Source: a virus. From it: a stretch of 38,615 nt of DNA. The notes beneath the pieces were generated by a model. That model was not told the origin of the DNA and made no database searches. It worked only from the letters and a program-made list of their open reading frames with translations. Made by a program: the position numbers and the translations under genes. Below are positions 2,444-36,335 of this stretch, one piece after another. Position 1 is the stretch's first letter. Each line of letters starts with the position of its first letter. Location: UHGV virus genome UHGV-0210052; one strand, written 5' to 3'.

Positions 2444-2473
2444 AATCCTCGCACTCGCGGGGATTTCTTTTAT
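2444..2473 (+). terminator. intrinsic terminator-like hairpin
   Basis: 9 bp stem (AATCCTCGC/GCGGGGATT, one G-U) with 4 nt loop followed by TCTTTTAT. Confidence 0.45.
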
Positions 2474-2501
2474 CTGAACTCGCTACGGCGAGTTTTGTTT
2501 T

Positions 2502-2813
2502 ATGGAGATGATTATGGCCTGTTCAACATTCAACCATCTAACGTTACAGAAATACCAGACAGACCCTGAAGATTTATGCTCACTGTGTGGCGGAAATCAT
2601 GGTAAAGCCGCCATGATCGAATGTAAGGACAAAATCCACATTTGCCTTAATTGCGTTGATGTCCTCGTTGATATCAAAAATGAGAGAGAAGATAAAAAGC
2701 GTAGCGAGGCTGTTCGCGCCTTAGATTCATGGATGCGGGATGGATATAGTGCCGCGCAAATTTATGACTTAGCAATATCAAAAGGAGAAATACCAGGAGT
2801 GCGCATCGAATAA
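2502..2813 (+). CDS. hypothetical Cys-rich protein, 103 aa
   Basis: Intact ORF with CxxC ... CxxC pattern; followed by a terminator. Confidence 0.45.
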   Translation: MEMIMACSTFNHLTLQKYQTDPEDLCSLCGGNHGKAAMIECKDKIHICLNCVDVLVDIKNEREDKKRSEAVRALDSWMRDGYSAAQIYDLAISKGEIPGVRIE

Positions 2814-2854
2814 GACGTAACCAACATTCGAATTGAAGAACTGAAAGAACACCA

Positions 2855-2878
2855 AGCCGCCTGATGGCGGTTTTTTAT
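2855..2878 (+). terminator. rho-independent terminator at end of ea gene block
   Basis: AGCCGCC-TGAT-GGCGGTT hairpin followed by TTTTTATTG. Confidence 0.55.
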
Positions 2879-2886
2879 TGCCTGAT

Positions 2887-3326: not shown

Positions 3327-3371
3327 GGGTAAAAAGTGGATAAAATAATTTTACCCACCGGATTTTTACCC
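3327..3371. repeat. GGGTAAAA motif cluster abutting int start codon
   Basis: GGGTAAAAA at 3327-3335 direct; TTTTACCC at 3349-3356 and 3364-3371 inverted; last copy ends 1 nt before int ATG. Confidence 0.45.
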
Positions 3372-4529
3372 ATGCTCACCGTTAAGCAGATTGAAGCAGC
3401 AAAGCCGAAAGAAAAACCATACCGCCTACTCGATGGTAATGGCCTGTACCTTTATGTCCCTGTATCAGGGAAAAAGGTATGGCAGCTTCGCTACAAGATT
3501 GACGGTAAGGAGAAAATCCTGACTGTCGGAAAATATCCGCTTATGACTTTGCAGGAAGCAAGGGATAAGGCATGGACTGCGAGGAAAGACATCTCGGTTG
3601 GCATCGATCCGGTAAAGGCGAAAAAGTCTTCGTCTAGCAACAATTCATTTAGTGCGATTTACAAGGAATGGTACGAGCACAAGAAGCAAGTCTGGTCAGT
3701 AGGCTATGCAACTGAACTTGCCAAAATGTTTGATGACGACATTTTACCCATCATCGGCGGTCTTGAGATTCAGGATATTGAGCCGATGCAACTGCTGGAA
3801 GTAATCCGCAGATTTGAAGATCGCGGTGCAATGGAGCGAGCCAACAAAGCCCGCAGAAGATGCGGCGAGGTTTTTCGTTACGCTATTGTCACTGGTAGGG
3901 CTAAATATAACCCGGCACCTGACCTTGCTGACGCCATGAAGGGATACCGCAAGAAGAACTTCCCGTTTTTACCTGCCGACCAGATCCCGGCATTCAACAA
4001 AGCACTTGCAACATTTTCAGGAAGTATCGTATCGCTCATTGCGACCAAAGTTTTACGCTACACAGCCCTAAGAACGAAAGAGCTTCGTTCCATGCAATGG
4101 AAGAACGTCGATTTTGAAAACAGGATTATCACCATCGACGCCAGTGTGATGAAGGGACGCAAAATTCATGTTGTCCCGATGTCAGACCAGGTGGTTGAAC
4201 TTCTCACTACGCTAAGCTCAATCACTAAACCAGTATCAGAGTTTGTTTTTGCCGGGCGCAACGATAAGAAAAAGCCAATCTGCGAGAACGCGGTATTGCT
4301 TGTGATCAAACAAATCGGCTATGAGGGTCTGGAAAGCGGTCACGGATTCAGGCATGAATTCAGCACGATTATGAACGAGCACGAATGGCCTGCTGACGCT
4401 ATTGAAGTGCAACTTGCACATGCCAACGGCGGATCTGTGCGCGGGATTTACAACCATGCTCAGTATCTAGATAAGCGCAGAGAAATGATGCAGTGGTGGG
4501 CTGACTGGATTGATGAAAAGGTGGAGTGA
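3372..4529 (+). CDS. intS: tyrosine integrase, IntS (CPS-53/KplE1) type, 385 aa
   Basis: From MLTVKQIEAAKPKEK the protein matches K-12 IntS as recalled; C-terminal R...HGFRH...Y catalytic motifs; track GTG 3336 start rejected. Confidence 0.9.
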   Translation: MLTVKQIEAAKPKEKPYRLLDGNGLYLYVPVSGKKVWQLRYKIDGKEKILTVGKYPLMTLQEARDKAWTARKDISVGIDPVKAKKSSSSNNSFSAIYKEWYEHKKQVWSVGYATELAKMFDDDILPIIGGLEIQDIEPMQLLEVIRRFEDRGAMERANKARRRCGEVFRYAIVTGRAKYNPAPDLADAMKGYRKKNFPFLPADQIPAFNKALATFSGSIVSLIATKVLRYTALRTKELRSMQWKNVDFENRIITIDASVMKGRKIHVVPMSDQVVELLTTLSSITKPVSEFVFAGRNDKKKPICENAVLLVIKQIGYEGLESGHGFRHEFSTIMNEHEWPADAIEVQLAHANGGSVRGIYNHAQYLDKRREMMQWWADWIDEKVE

Positions 4530-32926: not shown

Positions 32927-32995
32927 TGTGGATTGATCCAGTCTTTCTACATCAGGCCTCGAAGAATTCGCCGTTCTTCGGGGCTTTTTCTTTTG
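32927..32995 (+). ncRNA. OOP-like antisense RNA opposite the cII 3-prime end
   Basis: Strong + strand terminator (10 bp stem CCTCGAAGAA/TTCTTCGGGG then TTTTTCTTTT) inside the cII 3-prime end; CATAAT -10-like box at 32915-32920. Confidence 0.4.
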
Positions 32996-33230
32996 TCAGC
33001 ATTCTGGCTACTTTCTTAGCCAGTTCCGCCAACTCCTCGTCTTCAACACCCCACTCCAGTACAGCCAGAAGCATGGCCATCTTTGGGATAAAGCTGTCTT
33101 TCCATCGCGAAATTTGCGATTCATTGATCCCTAATGCGTCGGCCACCTTTCGCTGACCACGTACAGCAATTCGATTCAGGATGTTGCTTGTAATTGCATT
33201 CGCTTTCTTGCGAGTACTTGTAAGTTGCAT
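32952..33230 (-). CDS. cII: CII transcriptional activator, 92 aa
   Basis: SQISRWKDSFIPKMAMLLAVLEWGV matches lambda CII core as recalled. Confidence 0.85.
   Translation of the reverse strand: MQLTSTRKKANAITSNILNRIAVRGQRKVADALGINESQISRWKDSFIPKMAMLLAVLEWGVEDEELAELAKKVARMLTKEKAPKNGEFFEA
33184..33197 (+). promoter_or_regulatory. CII binding site TTGC-N6-TTGC (PRE -35 region)
   Basis: TTGCTTGTAATTGC on + strand inside the cII 5-prime coding region, oriented toward cI. Confidence 0.5.
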
Positions 33231-33288
33231 ATGTAAGTATTTCCTTAACTAATAAGAAGTTATGCGCATCAACTTATGCGCGTTGTAT

Positions 33289-33332
33289 TCCCGCATTTCG
33301 GCGGGAATGAGGACCATGACTGTTAAAGAGCG
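33289..33332 (-). promoter_or_regulatory. nutR (boxA CGCTCTTTAACA, boxB hairpin)
   Basis: On - strand boxA-like CGCTCTTTAACA after cro stop, then UCCCGCCGAAAUGCGGGA stem-loop; same elements recur at nutL. Confidence 0.6.
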
Positions 33333-33338
33333 GTGTTA

Positions 33339-33539
33339 CTATTTGTTTTTCTTGTTGCTTGGGAAAGGACGAACTTCCTCTCCAATCACACTGCCATCAG
33401 GCTTTACCGTAACCATGATGTTACGGCCTGCCAGAATGGCCTTGCTGATAGCGCACTGGATTACACCAAAGTCACTGGCTGCTTTAGCCTGTCCATGGAT
33501 TTTGGCGTAATCGGCAAGTGTCATTCGAATCATATGCAC
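33339..33539 (-). CDS. cro: Cro repressor, 66 aa
   Basis: [49 protein letters not shown] closely resembles lambda Cro as recalled; GTG start. Confidence 0.85.
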
Positions 33540-33562
33540 TCTCCGTTATTAACCATGAACAA

Positions 33563-33591
33563 AGAATACTACAGGTATTCAAAGCAATCAA
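33563..33591 (-). promoter_or_regulatory. PR promoter
   Basis: On - strand TTGATT, 17 bp spacer, TATTCT; overlaps OR1/OR2. Confidence 0.5.
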
Positions 33592-33628
33592 TACTCAGGG
33601 TATTTTTAGTTTAAGTACCTTAGCTATT
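33565..33628. promoter_or_regulatory. OR operator array (three 15 bp AATAC-N5-GTATT sites)
   Basis: AATACTACAGGTATT 33565-33579, AATACTCAGGGTATT 33590-33604, degenerate AGTACCTTAGCTATT 33614-33628. Confidence 0.6.
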
Positions 33629-33633
33629 AGAAT
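33605..33633 (+). promoter_or_regulatory. PRM promoter (leaderless cI transcript)
   Basis: TAGAAT at 33628-33633, 7 nt before cI ATG with no SD; weak -35 TTTAGT. Confidence 0.4.
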
Positions 33634-33639
33634 TAAGCT

Positions 33640-34356
33640 ATGGAAAATAAAAAATCACTGACGACAGAACAGCTCGAAGACGCTAAGCGGCTTAAGGCTT
33701 TGTATGAGTCAAAAAAGAAAGAATTGGGAATAACCCAATACTCAATCGCTGATGAACTGGGTATCACCCAAGGAGCGGTAGGGCATTATCTTAATGGCAG
33801 AAACGCGCTAAACGTTGAGGTTGCATCTGGTTTTGCACGATTGTTGCAAGTCTCAATTGCTGATTTTAGCCAGTCAATTGCTGCCAAGGTTGCAGAACAG
33901 GCAGAAAGCCTTAAGAGCGATGCCAACGTAAGGTATGCAGGGGAATACAGAGCAGGAAAGAGGTATCCGGTGTTAAGCAGTATCCAGGCTGGCTCGTGGT
34001 GTGAAGCATGCGAACCATACACCATTAAAGACATAGATGTTTGGCTTGAGTCTGACGCGCATATTCAAGGTAATGCGTTTTGGCTTAAAGTGGAAGGTGA
34101 TTCAATGACGGCACCGGTTGGGTTAAGCATTCCAGAGGGAACATTCGTTCTTTTCGATACCGGAAGGGAGGCGATCAACGGCAGCTTGGTCATAGCAAAA
34201 CTTTCTGACTCTAACGAAGCAACATTCAAGAAGCTGATAATCGACGGCGGAAATAAATACCTCAAGGGACTTAATCCTGCATGGCCTCTCGTGCCAATCA
34301 ATGGAAACTGCAAGATTATAGGCGTTGCAATTGAGACAAAACTAAGGCTGGTTTGA
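33640..34356 (+). CDS. cI: CI repressor (HTH N-terminus, LexA-like S24 C-terminus), 238 aa
   Basis: LTTEQLEDAKRLKALYESKKKELG, Ser/Lys dyad context (EGDSM ... FKKL); resembles lambda CI as recalled. Confidence 0.9.
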   Translation: MENKKSLTTEQLEDAKRLKALYESKKKELGITQYSIADELGITQGAVGHYLNGRNALNVEVASGFARLLQVSIADFSQSIAAKVAEQAESLKSDANVRYAGEYRAGKRYPVLSSIQAGSWCEACEPYTIKDIDVWLESDAHIQGNAFWLKVEGDSMTAPVGLSIPEGTFVLFDTGREAINGSLVIAKLSDSNEATFKKLIIDGGNKYLKGLNPAWPLVPINGNCKIIGVAIETKLRLV

Positions 34357-34373
34357 TCACGCAAGGGGCGATT

Positions 34374-34742
34374 ATGGTTGGAACCGCTATAGCAAGCTTT
34401 TTTGGGATGTTGGCAATCTCGACAATTTACGGCTTAGCGCATGCTTTTATTGCGAAATCTCTATCAGAAAAAATAAGCCAGGCTTGGGCGCATAGATCAG
34501 CTCGTTTCATGATTCTTGTGATCATAGCAATACAAGGGATATCTGCATTTATCCTCTATGGATCAAGCTTATACCTATTGTATCAAGGCGCGACATTTAC
34601 GCCTTACACCAGTGATTACGGAACTCTATACGATGGTAGTGAAGACATCACTGTGGCTTGGATCGTCTTTGGTTTATCTATGGCCGTGTCTGTTGTAGCA
34701 GACATCATTAAGGTAATTCTCGTCTTAACCTTCGCTGACTAA
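34374..34742 (+). CDS. small multi-TM membrane protein co-transcribed with cI, 122 aa
   Basis: ATG 34374 with AAGGGG SD; starts 18 nt after cI stop; three predicted TM helices; no motif recognised. Confidence 0.5.
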   Translation: MVGTAIASFFGMLAISTIYGLAHAFIAKSLSEKISQAWAHRSARFMILVIIAIQGISAFILYGSSLYLLYQGATFTPYTSDYGTLYDGSEDITVAWIVFGLSMAVSVVADIIKVILVLTFAD

Positions 34743-34828
34743 CCCATAATCCCGACAGCAATAGCTATCGGGATCCACTTCACATATCCCGCATAAAAAT
34801 CACTGAACAAGCAGACAGCGAAAAAATA

Positions 34829-34913
34829 AATATCCTTTGTATTCATTTGTTTATCATTATTTCATCAAAAATAAATACCTTGGGTATTTACACAATAAAA
34901 TACCTACAGTATT
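34829..34913. promoter_or_regulatory. OL operator array
   Basis: AATATCCTTTGTATT 34829-34843, AATACCTTGGGTATT 34874-34888, AATACCTACAGTATT 34899-34913; same consensus as OR. Confidence 0.55.
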
Positions 34914-34915
34914 CT
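34887..34915 (+). promoter_or_regulatory. PL promoter
   Basis: TTTACA, 17 bp spacer, TATTCT; overlaps OL sites; about 195 nt upstream of N. Confidence 0.5.
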
Positions 34916-34961
34916 TTAGCCATCAGCAGGACGCTGGAAGCCAAACGGAACAGATTGGCAG

Positions 34962-35002
34962 GCTCTTTAACATTGATGGGATTGTCCCGCCGAAATGCGG
35001 GA
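34962..35002 (+). promoter_or_regulatory. nutL (boxA GCTCTTTAACA, boxB hairpin)
   Basis: boxA 34962-34972; boxB TCCCGCCGAAATGCGGGA 34985-35002, identical to the nutR boxB. Confidence 0.6.
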
Positions 35003-35109
35003 ACCAAAGAGTAGTTGGCTTTGGGGTGGCGTGAAGTGCAGCTGCACGACGGCAACCGGAAGATAAGCACCCGGCGCGTCACCGCCAAAGTCAATCATCG
35101 GAGGTCAAC

Positions 35110-35382
35110 ATGACAGTAGTCATTACATATCTGGCTGACGATAACGCCAGAAATCGCCGCAGAGCACGCAGACAGGCTCAACGTGAACAGGCAATGCAAG
35201 AGCAGCGACTGGCACGAAAAATTGCGCTAAAGCTCTCTGGTTGCGTCAGAGCAGATAAAGCAGCATCACTCGGAAGCCTTCGCTGCAAGAAGGCAGATGA
35301 ATGCAGTGGAAGTATTTGCCTGCCAAACGTAGCCATTTACGCGGCAGGCTACCGGAAATCAAAACAACTGACAGCGAGGTAA
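35110..35382 (+). CDS. N: N antiterminator, P22 gp24 type, 90 aa
   Basis: Arg-rich N-terminus NARNRRRARRQAQREQ; C-terminus AIYAAGYRKSKQLTAR resembles P22 gene 24 protein as recalled; GGAGG SD. Confidence 0.8.
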   Translation: MTVVITYLADDNARNRRRARRQAQREQAMQEQRLARKIALKLSGCVRADKAASLGSLRCKKADECSGSICLPNVAIYAAGYRKSKQLTAR

Positions 35383-36245: not shown

Positions 36246-36271
36246 GCCCTCCAATGTGAGGGCCTTTTTAT
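36246..36271 (+). terminator. rho-independent terminator inside the PL operon (tL-like)
   Basis: GCCCTC-CAATGT-GAGGGC hairpin followed by CTTTTTAT. Confidence 0.6.
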
Positions 36272-36335
36272 ATGCATACCAATAACGCTTCACGAGAGGC
36301 GTTTTCGTTATGCAATCAAACAGAAGGAGCATCCT

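What the first reader, a model, noticed from the sequence alone, without database searches (positions are those of the whole stretch)
33289..35002. Matched nutL and nutR pair with identical boxB hairpins paired with a P22-type N
boxA (G/CGCTCTTTAACA) and the identical boxB hairpin TCCCGCCGAAATGCGGGA occur downstream of PL (34962-35002) and downstream of cro (33289-33332, - strand). N has the P22 gp24-like C-terminus. The boxB loop (CGAAAT) differs from the lambda and P22 boxB loops as I recall them, suggesting a distinct N-boxB specificity. Several intrinsic terminators in the early-left operon (2444, 2855, 36246) are consistent with N-dependent read-through.
Basis: partly seen in the sequence, partly recalled or inferred. 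Interest (0 to 1): 0.35.

Follow-up and report, generated by a model that had tools for sequence, protein, structure and literature searches.

The report
Known HK620-type nutL/nutR antitermination sites
The two matching hairpins are real and are almost certainly the RNA landing sites for this phage's N antitermination protein, but the identical sites were already annotated in coliphage HK620 in 2001 and sit in about one in ten E. coli genomes, so the finding is correct but ordinary.

Summary
Observation confirmed. An 18-nt hairpin TCCCGC-CGAAAT-GCGGGA occurs exactly twice in the window. Each copy lies 12-14 nt after a boxA (GCTCTTTAACA): one between PL and N, one just after cro.

The region is 99.5% identical to coliphage HK620. 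That GenBank record already labels these coordinates as putative nutL and nutR.

Interpretation largely supported:
- In 116 distinct N-gene contexts, the N-terminal arginine-rich motif (ARM) always travels with its own boxB type.
- The HK620-type ARM has the CGAAAU boxB at both nut sites in 85 of 91 contexts. The six exceptions are deletions, an IS insertion, contig ends or one orphan second N gene.
- This holds across 8 different immunity regions and several N C-terminal modules.
- No cross-type pairing was seen, including in 80 HK97/933W-type loci.

"P22-type N" is only partly right, because N is a three-part mosaic:
- residues 1-33: its own ARM;
- residues 34-64: 97% identical to phi21 N;
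- residues 65-90: 85% identical to 933W-type N and 69% to P22 gp24.

The closest RNA-binding relatives are HK97/933W (ARM RRRARR, true GAAA tetraloop) and phi21 (hexaloop with a C.C closing pair). I infer that boxB is a GAAA tetraloop closed by a C.U mismatch.

No binding or antitermination experiment on this type was found. Low interest.

The parts
33321..33332 (-). nutR boxA (CGCTCTTTAACA). It starts 6 nt after the cro stop codon.
   Evidence: It lies inside the HK620 feature 'nutR; putative N-utilization rightward' (L001 1588-1633, equal to window 33287-33332).
33287..33308 (-). nutR boxB hairpin AUUCCCGC-CGAAAU-GCGGGAAU. The core 18-mer is 33289-33306.
   Evidence: It is identical in relatives carrying 8 different immunity regions. 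Cedecea and MAG relatives show compensatory stem changes with the loop unchanged.
33264..33281 (-). Second hairpin, GCGCAU-AAGUUG-AUGCGC, just downstream of nutR boxB and upstream of cII. The adjacent 7 nt are labelled tR1 in HK620.
   Evidence: Sequence. Variants GCGCAUC-AGUU-GGUGCGU keep the pairing. Its function was not tested.
33339..33539 (-). cro, lambda-type.
   Evidence: Pfam PF09048, E = 3.6e-26.
33640..34356 (+). cI repressor (HTH_3 plus Peptidase_S24 domains).
   Evidence: HK620 annotation.
34887..34915 (+). PL promoter (TTTACA-17-TATTCT), overlapping OL1.
   Evidence: Promoter scan. HK620 pL is at L001 3188-3223, equal to window 34887-34922.
34961..34972 (+). nutL boxA (GGCTCTTTAACA).
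   Evidence: HK620 nutL is at L001 3262-3303, equal to window 34961-35002.
34985..35002 (+). nutL boxB hairpin UCCCGC-CGAAAU-GCGGGA.
   Evidence: The loop and core stem are invariant in 20 distinct nutL sequences while the flanks vary.
35014..35095 (+). Long hairpin in the N leader. Its base (GGCUUUGGGG / CCGCCAAAG) aligns with the N leaders of lambda, phi21 and P22.
   Evidence: Whole 131-nt fragment (boxB plus leader) folds at -54.5 kcal/mol, z = -4.0, with 0 of 200 shuffles folding as well. The equivalence to the lambda RNase III site rests on my own knowledge and was not tested here.
35110..35382 (+). N antitermination protein, 90 aa. The ARM is ADDNARNRRRARRQAQREQAM (about residues 9-29).
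   Evidence: Pfam PF25694, E = 1.1e-15. PHROG 271 'anti-termination protein N-like', E = 4e-34. Mosaic structure.
36246..36272 (+). Intrinsic-terminator-like hairpin (GCCCUC-CAAUGU-GAGGGC plus a U-run) in the early-left operon. A second one starts at 36284.
2444..2881 (+). Cluster of three terminator-like hairpins (2444, 2476, 2854) on the early-left strand, upstream of the 397-aa + strand ORF at 3336-4529 (presumed int; not searched).
   Evidence: That the early-left operon wraps round the window end to reach them is an inference.

Best explanation
These are the nutL and nutR sites of an HK620-type lambdoid early antitermination system.

Proposed mechanism (every step inferred from the lambda paradigm, none shown here):
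- Transcripts from PL and PR carry boxA (GCUCUUUAACA), which recruits host NusB-NusE.
- 12-14 nt further on they carry the boxB hairpin.
- The N-terminal arginine-rich helix of N binds boxB. N then loops onto the elongating RNA polymerase through its NusA-binding middle segment and its C-terminal polymerase-binding segment.
- The polymerase becomes resistant to the terminators downstream in both early operons.

boxB is a 6-8 bp GC-rich stem capped by the hexaloop CGAAAU. I read this as a canonical GAAA (GNRA) tetraloop closed by a C.U mismatch. It would be the counterpart of the phi21 hexaloop (C.C pair plus UAAC) and of the HK97/933W boxB (U-A pair plus GAAA).

The ARM/boxB pair behaves as its own specificity class: it is swapped as a unit among phages.

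Shown here: the sequence, positions, fold, protein family, and strict ARM-boxB co-inheritance including nutR across swapped immunity regions. Inferred: binding, the C.U-closed GNRA geometry, dependence on Nus factors, and which terminators are read through.
For: - Exact duplicate hairpin, expected 0.02 by chance, each copy downstream of boxA and at the canonical positions.
- The same sequences are annotated as putative nutL/nutR in HK620, together with pL, pR, OL/OR and tR1. Identity to HK620 is 99.5%.
- N matches Pfam N_peptide and PHROG 271.
- Co-inheritance across 116 distinct contexts: 85 HK620-ARM contexts have the CGAAAU boxB at both nut sites, phi21-ARM 8 of 8 have CUAACM, P22-ARM 11 of 13 have GACAA at both, lambda-ARM 3 of 3. 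There are no cross-type pairs.
- 0 of 80 HK97/933W-type loci carry an HK620 boxB.
- Proteins identical to the window's N from residue ~34 onward but carrying the phi21 ARM have phi21 boxBs. Proteins with the HK620 ARM but a lambda/phi21-like or P22-like remainder keep the CGAAAU boxB.
- nutR matches the ARM across 8 unrelated immunity-region clusters and in Escherichia, Salmonella, Enterobacter and Cedecea.
- An N only 48% identical overall keeps the ARM core and the loop.
- Stem changes are compensatory (G-C to A-U, U-A to C-G, A-U to G-C, U-A to U.G) while the loop is invariant.
- The phi21 CUAACC hexaloop is a C.C pair plus a GNRA-like fold (PMC12550061, read).
- Terminator-like sites lie downstream.
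Against: - No experiment on this N/boxB type was found in the searchable literature. The HK620 record itself says 'putative'.
- nutL lies only ~110 nt from the ARM codons, so their co-inheritance is partly plain linkage. Only nutR is an independent test.
- Many sampled loci are close relatives, so the counts are not independent events.
- In 61-66 nt context the fold is not better than shuffles (z = -0.6 and -0.9).
- One natural nutR variant has a C.C mismatch in the stem.
- The C.U-closed GNRA geometry is by analogy only.
- Rfam has no model that matches, and no solved structure matches this N by sequence.
Confidence: 0.85

Rival explanations
1. The sites are nut sites, but the specificity is not distinct. 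HK620-type N and HK97/933W-type N would recognise each other's boxB, because both present a GAAA turn and both ARMs share the RRRARR core. The C.U versus U-A closing pair would then be neutral.
For: The ARMs align as ARNRRRARR-QAQREQA against AASRRRARRANLQSQEA. HK97/933W boxBs are GGCU-GAAA-AGCC at nutL and CGCU-GAAA-AGCG at nutR, so they carry the same four loop bases.
Against: In nature the two types are never mixed: 85 of 85 complete HK620-ARM contexts and 0 of 80 HK97-type loci. The stems, closing pairs and spacer architecture differ; the HK97 type has an extra spacer hairpin. Exclusive pairing could also reflect linkage and sampling.
Confidence: 0.25
2. The conserved boxA-boxB blocks are mainly recombination 'boundary sequences' flanking the exchangeable immunity module. 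They would be conserved because they serve as homology for module swapping, not because N reads this particular hairpin.
For: The blocks sit exactly at the edges of 8 different immunity regions. The CUS-3 record labels a 'boundary sequence' in this region. One relative, mEp213, shows a recombination joint inside the hairpin.
Against: A recombination-homology role does not predict compensatory stem changes with an invariant loop. It also does not predict strict matching of nutR to the ARM type when the rest of N is swapped. The two roles are not exclusive.
Confidence: 0.05
3. The hairpins have another primary role, such as terminator, Rho-site element, RNase III site or translational operator for cII or N. 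N would act through other RNA elements.
For: In lambda, nutR overlaps the rut site of tR1 (PMC3526286). A second hairpin and a long leader hairpin lie right beside the boxBs.
Against: Neither copy is followed by a U-run. The same 18-mer sits in two different operons, where the only shared context is boxA. No other repeated element accompanies the ARM type.
Confidence: 0.03

Closest known systems
Coliphage HK620 nutL/nutR and N (GenBank AF335538; Clark et al. 2001, J Mol Biol 311:657)
   Same: Identity is 99.5% over 33200-35382. The boxA and boxB sequences are identical. The coordinates map one-to-one onto the record's 'nutL' and 'nutR' features. N is 97.8% identical.
   Different: The genes downstream of N and much of the rest of the genome differ. 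The window is a different mosaic Lederbergvirus; its best whole-genome match covers 64%. The HK620 nut sites are themselves only 'putative'.
HK97/933W-type N and nut sites (for example Stx2 phage II)
   Same: The ARM core is RRRARR followed by a Q-rich helix. The boxB loop contains GAAA. The C-terminal 24 residues of N match at 22 positions.
   Different: boxB is a true tetraloop closed by U-A on a GGCU/AGCC or CGCU/AGCG stem. An extra hairpin sits in the boxA-boxB spacer. The N-terminal and middle parts of N are unrelated. The two types were never found cross-paired.
Phage phi21 N-boxB (structure PDB 1NYB)
   Same: Both have a hexaloop boxB with a pyrimidine-pyrimidine closing position: C[UAAC]C in phi21 against C[GAAA]U here. 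The boxA plus spacer are homologous (GGCTCTTTAACAT.GA.GG). N residues 34-64 are 97% identical. The first half of the ARM follows A[KR][SN]R..ARR (PMC12550061).
   Different: The four inner loop bases differ (UAAC against GAAA). The second half of the ARM differs. The phi21 N C-terminus is lambda-like. Phages with the phi21 ARM always carry phi21 boxBs.
Phage P22 gp24 and its boxB
   Same: The C-terminal polymerase-binding-type segment matches at 18 of 24 residues. The host phage is P22-like. P22 nutR also flanks its loop with C...C.
   Different: The ARM is GNAKTRRHERRRKLAIER and the loop is the pentaloop GACAA. Overall identity is 40%.
Phage lambda N-boxB
   Same: Same architecture: boxA, spacer, boxB, leader hairpin, N. 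Both have a purine-rich GNRA-type loop and an RRRxRR ARM.
   Different: Lambda has the pentaloops GAAAA/GAAGA closed by U-A. The lambda ARM has Trp18; the aligned position here is Ala. Lambda boxA is CGCUCUUA, whereas here it is the consensus-like GCUCUUUAACA. The N proteins are otherwise unrelated (9% identity).

Membership tests
Lambdoid N/nut processive antitermination system | A boxA element followed within ~10-20 nt by a boxB hairpin, present once in each early operon. | tested here: met
Lambdoid N/nut processive antitermination system | Position: nutL between PL and N; nutR between cro and cII. | tested here: met
   ORFs and Pfam matches, promoter scan, HK620 annotation.
Lambdoid N/nut processive antitermination system | A small basic N protein with an N-terminal arginine-rich motif. 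| tested here: met
   Pfam PF25694, E = 1.1e-15. PHROG 271, E = 4e-34. The ARM is visible.
Lambdoid N/nut processive antitermination system | The ARM type and the boxB type co-vary, which marks a cognate pair. | tested here: met
   Contingency table.
Lambdoid N/nut processive antitermination system | Terminators downstream of the nut sites in the early operons. | tested here: met
   Pattern matches only: 36246, 36284, 2444, 2476 and 2854; tR1 label in HK620.
Lambdoid N/nut processive antitermination system | N-dependent, NusA/B/E/G-assisted read-through of terminators. | not testable with these tools
   Needs reporter or in vitro transcription assays. No published test of this type was found.
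HK620-type specificity class | ARM A[DN][DN]NARNRRRA[RK]R together with boxB CGC-CGAAAU-GCG at both nut sites. | tested here: met
P22 gp24 / GACAA class | ARM GNAKTRRHERRRKLAIER and boxB pentaloop GACAA. | tested here: not met
   The ARM segment is 27% identical. The loop is CGAAAU, not GACAA. Only the C-terminal ~26 residues resemble gp24.
phi21 / CUAACC class | ARM GTAKSRYKARRAELIAERR and boxB hexaloop CUAACC. | tested here: not met
   The ARM segment is 18% identical and the loop differs at 3 of 6 positions. The hexaloop format, the nut flanks and the middle of N are shared.
HK97/933W / GAAA-tetraloop class | ARM GTAASRRRARRANLQSQEA and boxB GCU-GAAA-AGC (U-A closed tetraloop). | tested here: not met
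   The closing pair here is C.U and the stem differs. 0 of 80 HK97-type loci carry the HK620 boxB. Functional cross-reactivity was not tested.

The most novel reading that the evidence does not exclude
The HK620-type ARM/boxB pair is a fourth or fifth naturally orthogonal N-peptide/RNA recognition pair that has not been characterised biochemically. In it, a canonical GAAA tetraloop closed by a C.U mismatch would be discriminated from the U-A-closed GAAA tetraloop of HK97/933W phages, and from the lambda, P22 and phi21 loops, by an ARM that lacks the lambda Trp18. If so, it would add a ready-made orthogonal RNA-tethering tag and a clean natural test of how closing-pair geometry sets ARM specificity.
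Probability: 0.45. Interest if true: 0.3.

Novelty: already known. Interest (0 to 1): 0.15.

Why it matters
As an annotation it matters little. It confirms that this P22-like phage controls its early genes with an N/nut system already described for HK620.

Two things may be useful:
- This module is one of the commonest N types in E. coli prophages. The nutL-ARM segment is in 526 of 5426 complete genomes, yet no biochemical study of it turned up.
- The comparative table (ARM against boxB at nutL and nutR, across swapped immunity regions and swapped N C-termini) shows in natural data that the ARM and both boxBs are inherited as one functional unit.

Measuring its cross-reactivity with the HK97/933W GAAA tetraloop would be a small but clean experiment on ARM-RNA specificity.

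Tried and rejected
- Rfam scan of the whole window at gathering thresholds: no match, so there is no curated nut or boxB family to test against.
- Sequence search of N against PDB chains: only chance hits to RNF168. The lambda, P22 and phi21 N-peptide structures are not retrieved.
- Literature searches for HK620 with boxB, nutR or antitermination found no functional study. The phi21 structure paper (PMC1370434) is not held. A search for the lambda N-leader RNase III work found nothing citable, so that point rests on my own knowledge.
- My first automatic hairpin caller picked up unrelated boxA-like sites and gave noisy nutR calls. I replaced it with explicit boxB-type patterns.
- 'Hairpin absent in relatives' was considered for L028, L034, L039, L055, L057 and L070 and rejected. 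They are, respectively, an IS-type disruption, a contig end, two prophages with a cro-ninG deletion, an orphan second N gene, and a contig end.
- I checked whether the structured leader-RNA module seen in relatives is hidden elsewhere in the window. It is not: nhmmer finds nothing at E <= 10.
Full report
**1. What is in the sequence**

The 18-nt inverted repeat TCCCGCCGAAATGCGGGA occurs exactly twice in the 38.6-kb window, at 34985-35002 (+) and 33289-33306 (-). Allowing three mismatches adds no further hit, and shuffles predict 0.02 hits. Each copy lies 12-14 nt downstream, in the sense of transcription, of GCTCTTTAACA. These are the only two copies of that 11-mer even with one mismatch allowed.

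The hairpin alone folds as a 6-bp stem with a 6-nt loop (-9.7 kcal/mol, z = -2.9). At nutR two more A-U pairs extend the stem.

The gene order is the lambdoid immunity region read backwards:
- cII, 32952-33230 (-);
- nutR;
- cro, 33339-33539 (-);
- cI, 33640-34356 (+);
- a small membrane ORF;
- a PL-like promoter, 34887-34915 (+);
- nutL;
- N, 35110-35382 (+).

N matches Pfam PF25694 'N_peptide' (E = 1e-15) and PHROG 271.

**2. It is already annotated**

Window 33200-35382 is 99.5% identical to coliphage HK620 (AF335538). That record carries the features 'nutR; putative N-utilization rightward' and 'nutL; putative N-utilization leftward'. These map onto window 33287-33332 and 34961-35002. The record also labels pL, pR, OL1-3, OR1-3 and tR1.

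The rest of the window is a different mosaic of P22-like (Lederbergvirus) modules. Its best whole-genome match, phage Kapi1, covers 64%.

The nutL-ARM segment is present in 526 of 5426 complete E. coli genomes. The N protein clusters hold hundreds to more than a thousand members. This is a common prophage module.

**3. N is a mosaic, not simply 'P22-type'**

Segment-wise comparison and the alignment of database relatives show three modules:
- Residues 1-33 carry an ARM, ADDNARNRRRARRQAQREQAM, which is at most 27% identical to the ARM regions of P22, phi21, 933W-type or lambda N.
- Residues 34-64 are 97% identical to phi21 N.
- Residues 65-90 match 933W/HK97-type N at 22 of 24 aligned positions and P22 gp24 at 18 of 24.

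In the databases the same ARM is joined to a lambda/phi21-like C-terminus (P0010, 1223 members) or to a P22-like middle and C-terminus (Salmonella, Enterobacter). Conversely, the window's middle and C-terminus are found behind a phi21 ARM (P0054) or a P22 ARM.

**4. Test of the 'distinct specificity' idea by comparative genomics**

I collected loci by several routes:
- N homology in IMG/VR;
- exact-protein look-ups;
- reference phages P22, DE3 (imm21), a Stx1 phage, Stx2 II, lambda and mEp213.

Among 116 distinct N contexts, the results were as follows:

| ARM type | Contexts | boxB found |
|---|---|---|
| HK620 | 91 | CGAAAU at both nutL and nutR in 85 |
| phi21 | 8 | CUAAC(C/A) at both sites in all 8 |
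| P22 | 13 | GACAA at both sites in 11; nutL only in 2 |
| lambda | 3 | GAA(A/G)A at both sites in all 3 |

No ARM was found with another type's boxB. None of 80 HK97/933W-type loci contains an HK620 boxB.

The six incomplete HK620-type cases are explained as follows:
- two prophages with a cro-ninG fusion deletion that removes nutR;
- one disruption upstream of N by what looks like inserted DNA carrying a minus-strand ORF (not searched);
- two contig ends;
- the second, orphan N gene of mEp213.

nutL lies about 110 nt from the ARM codons, so their association is partly linkage. nutR is the independent test. It lies beyond the immunity region, which falls into 8 unrelated clusters (1.14-2.17 kb) among the HK620-type loci. 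In all of them nutR carries the matching boxB.

The pairing holds in Escherichia, Salmonella, Enterobacter and Cedecea. It also holds for an N only 48% identical overall that keeps the ARM core.

Within the hairpin the loop never varies. The stem shows G-C to A-U, U-A to C-G, A-U to G-C and U-A to U.G changes, plus one C.C mismatch in a Cedecea-type nutR. The spacer and flanks vary freely.

This is what selection on a cognate RNA-protein pair predicts.

**5. What the boxB probably looks like**

Reading real sequences gives these boxBs:

| Phage type | boxB |
|---|---|
| lambda nutL | CCCU-GAAGA-AGGG |
| P22 nutL | GCGCU-GACAA-AGCGC |
| P22 nutR | CCGC-C[GACAA]C-GCGG |
| phi21 | C[UAAC]C hexaloops |
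| HK97/933W | GGCU-GAAA-AGCC and CGCU-GAAA-AGCG |
| this phage | CGC-C[GAAA]U-GCG |

The phi21 hexaloop is known to form a GNRA-like fold flanked by a non-canonical C.C pair (PMC12550061, citing Cilley and Williamson 2003, PDB 1NYB). By analogy I infer a true GAAA tetraloop closed by a C.U mismatch.

The ARM supports this placement. Its core RRRARR and its Q-rich continuation are closest to the HK97/933W ARM. Its first half follows the phi21 pattern A[KR][SN]R..ARR. It lacks the lambda Trp18.

The boxA plus spacer of both sites is homologous to phi21 and Stx1-phage nut sites. So the nearest characterised systems are phi21 and HK97/933W, not P22.

**6. Mechanism and confidence**

I take the sites to work as in lambda:
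- boxA is bound by NusB-NusE;
- boxB is bound by the ARM helix;
- the middle of N (phi21-like) contacts NusA;
- the C-terminus contacts RNA polymerase.

This would yield a termination-resistant complex that reads through tR1 and the early-left terminators. All of these steps are inferred. None was or could be tested here, and I found no published experiment on this type.

Confidence that these are functional nut sites for this N is about 0.85. Confidence that the specificity is separate from lambda, P22 and phi21 is high. Whether it is separate from HK97/933W is open; I give that rival 0.25.

**7. Verdict**

The label 'P22-type N' should be replaced by 'HK620-type ARM on a phi21-like middle and a 933W/P22-like C-terminus'. 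Novelty: already known. Interest: low (0.15). The only open point is biochemical characterisation of a widespread but unstudied ARM-boxB pair.

**8. Seen along the way**

- The 107-nt N leader folds into a long hairpin (whole 131-nt fragment, boxB plus leader: -54.5 kcal/mol, z = -4.0). Its base aligns with the lambda, phi21 and P22 N leaders. In lambda this is the RNase III site that modulates N translation (my own knowledge).
- In relatives this leader is a hotspot for inserted modules, 194-561 nt long.
- One such module sits immediately after boxB. It is a ~250-nt element with a strong Shine-Dalgarno sequence, a conserved three-codon ORF (MVH) and a ~200-nt multi-hairpin RNA with compensatory changes. 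It has no Rfam match.
- The same element is unannotated in Hafnia, Klebsiella and Providencia phages. In Klebsiella phage RothC it lies downstream of the Q gene. It is absent from this window.
- mEp213 carries two N genes. The second is HK620-type and has lost its boxB through a joint with a terminator hairpin identical to the one at window 36246.

Noticed in passing
window 35014-35095 (+): The N leader forms a long hairpin (whole 131-nt fragment, boxB plus leader: -54.5 kcal/mol, z = -4.0, 0 of 200 shuffles fold as well). Its base, GGCUUUGGGG/CCGCCAAAG, is conserved in the lambda, phi21 and P22 N leaders while the interior varies. It probably corresponds to the lambda N-leader RNase III site that controls N translation.
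   Followed up: partly
L008:4142-4399, L144:3384-3640, L103:3485-3745, L265:1225-1455, L266:1195-1425, L267:1190-1415, L268:1165-1395 (not in the window; the insertion point corresponds to window ~35004/35005): Some relatives carry a ~250-nt module immediately after nutL boxB. It has a strong SD, a conserved mini-ORF ATG GTG CAC TAA (MVH), and a ~200-nt GC-rich multi-hairpin RNA in which 11 of 50 predicted pairs show compensatory changes. It has no Rfam match. It is unannotated in E. coli, Hafnia, Klebsiella and Providencia phages, and in Klebsiella phage RothC it lies downstream of gene Q. It is a candidate undescribed structured leader RNA.
   Followed up: partly
L086 (mEp213, NC_019720) 2218-2848 and 3600-4273; the same region is L055: mEp213 has two N genes in tandem. 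The first is lambda-type, with a lambda nutL upstream (GCCCUGAAGAAGGGC) and a lambda-type boxB on the opposite strand upstream. The second is HK620-type, and the left arm of its boxB is replaced by the left arm of the terminator hairpin found at window 36246. This is a recombination joint inside two hairpins, leaving an orphan N without cognate nut sites.
   Followed up: partly
window 33264-33281 (-): A second hairpin, GCGCAU-AAGUUG-AUGCGC, lies 7 nt downstream of nutR boxB and ~35 nt upstream of the cII start. Relatives carry GCGCAUC-AGUU-GGUGCGU, which keeps the pairing. The adjacent 7 nt are labelled tR1 in HK620. It could be a terminator or a cII translation element.
   Followed up: no
L039 and L057, 2936-3457 (-): Two prophage contigs with the same N and nutL lack nutR. 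In them the cro N-terminus is fused in frame to a NinG-like protein, which deletes cII, the replication genes and most of the nin region. Q and the lysis genes follow directly. These look like defective prophages.
   Followed up: partly
L185-L264 (HK97/933W-type loci); L104:3163-3215: HK97/933W-type nut sites carry an additional small hairpin in the boxA-boxB spacer (GUCGA...UCGAC at nutL, GGAC-AUUC-GUCC at nutR). Their boxB is a true GAAA tetraloop closed by U-A. nutR uses the boxA variant CGCUCUUUGUAACAA.
   Followed up: partly
window 34374-34742 (+): A 122-aa predicted membrane protein (HK620 hkaS; PHROG 6534, function unknown) sits between cI and PL. This is the position held by rexAB in lambda, so it is possibly a lysogen-expressed exclusion or conversion gene.
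   Followed up: no
L009, L026, L003, L091 and others: leader between the N-leader hairpin and the N Shine-Dalgarno sequence: A second insert of ~204 nt occurs in two sequence versions between AAAGTCAAT and CATCGGAGGTCAAC. It carries its own AGGAGG, a short ORF start and a terminator-like hairpin (CCCCUC-AAUUC-GAGGGG). Another relative set has a ~55-codon ORF inserted there. The N leader is a hotspot for small inserted elements.
   Followed up: no
L028:425-824: In one contig the region upstream of an intact HK620-type N, including nutL, is replaced by unrelated DNA. It appears to encode a protein on the opposite strand and looks IS-like; the ORF was not searched against any family.
   Followed up: no
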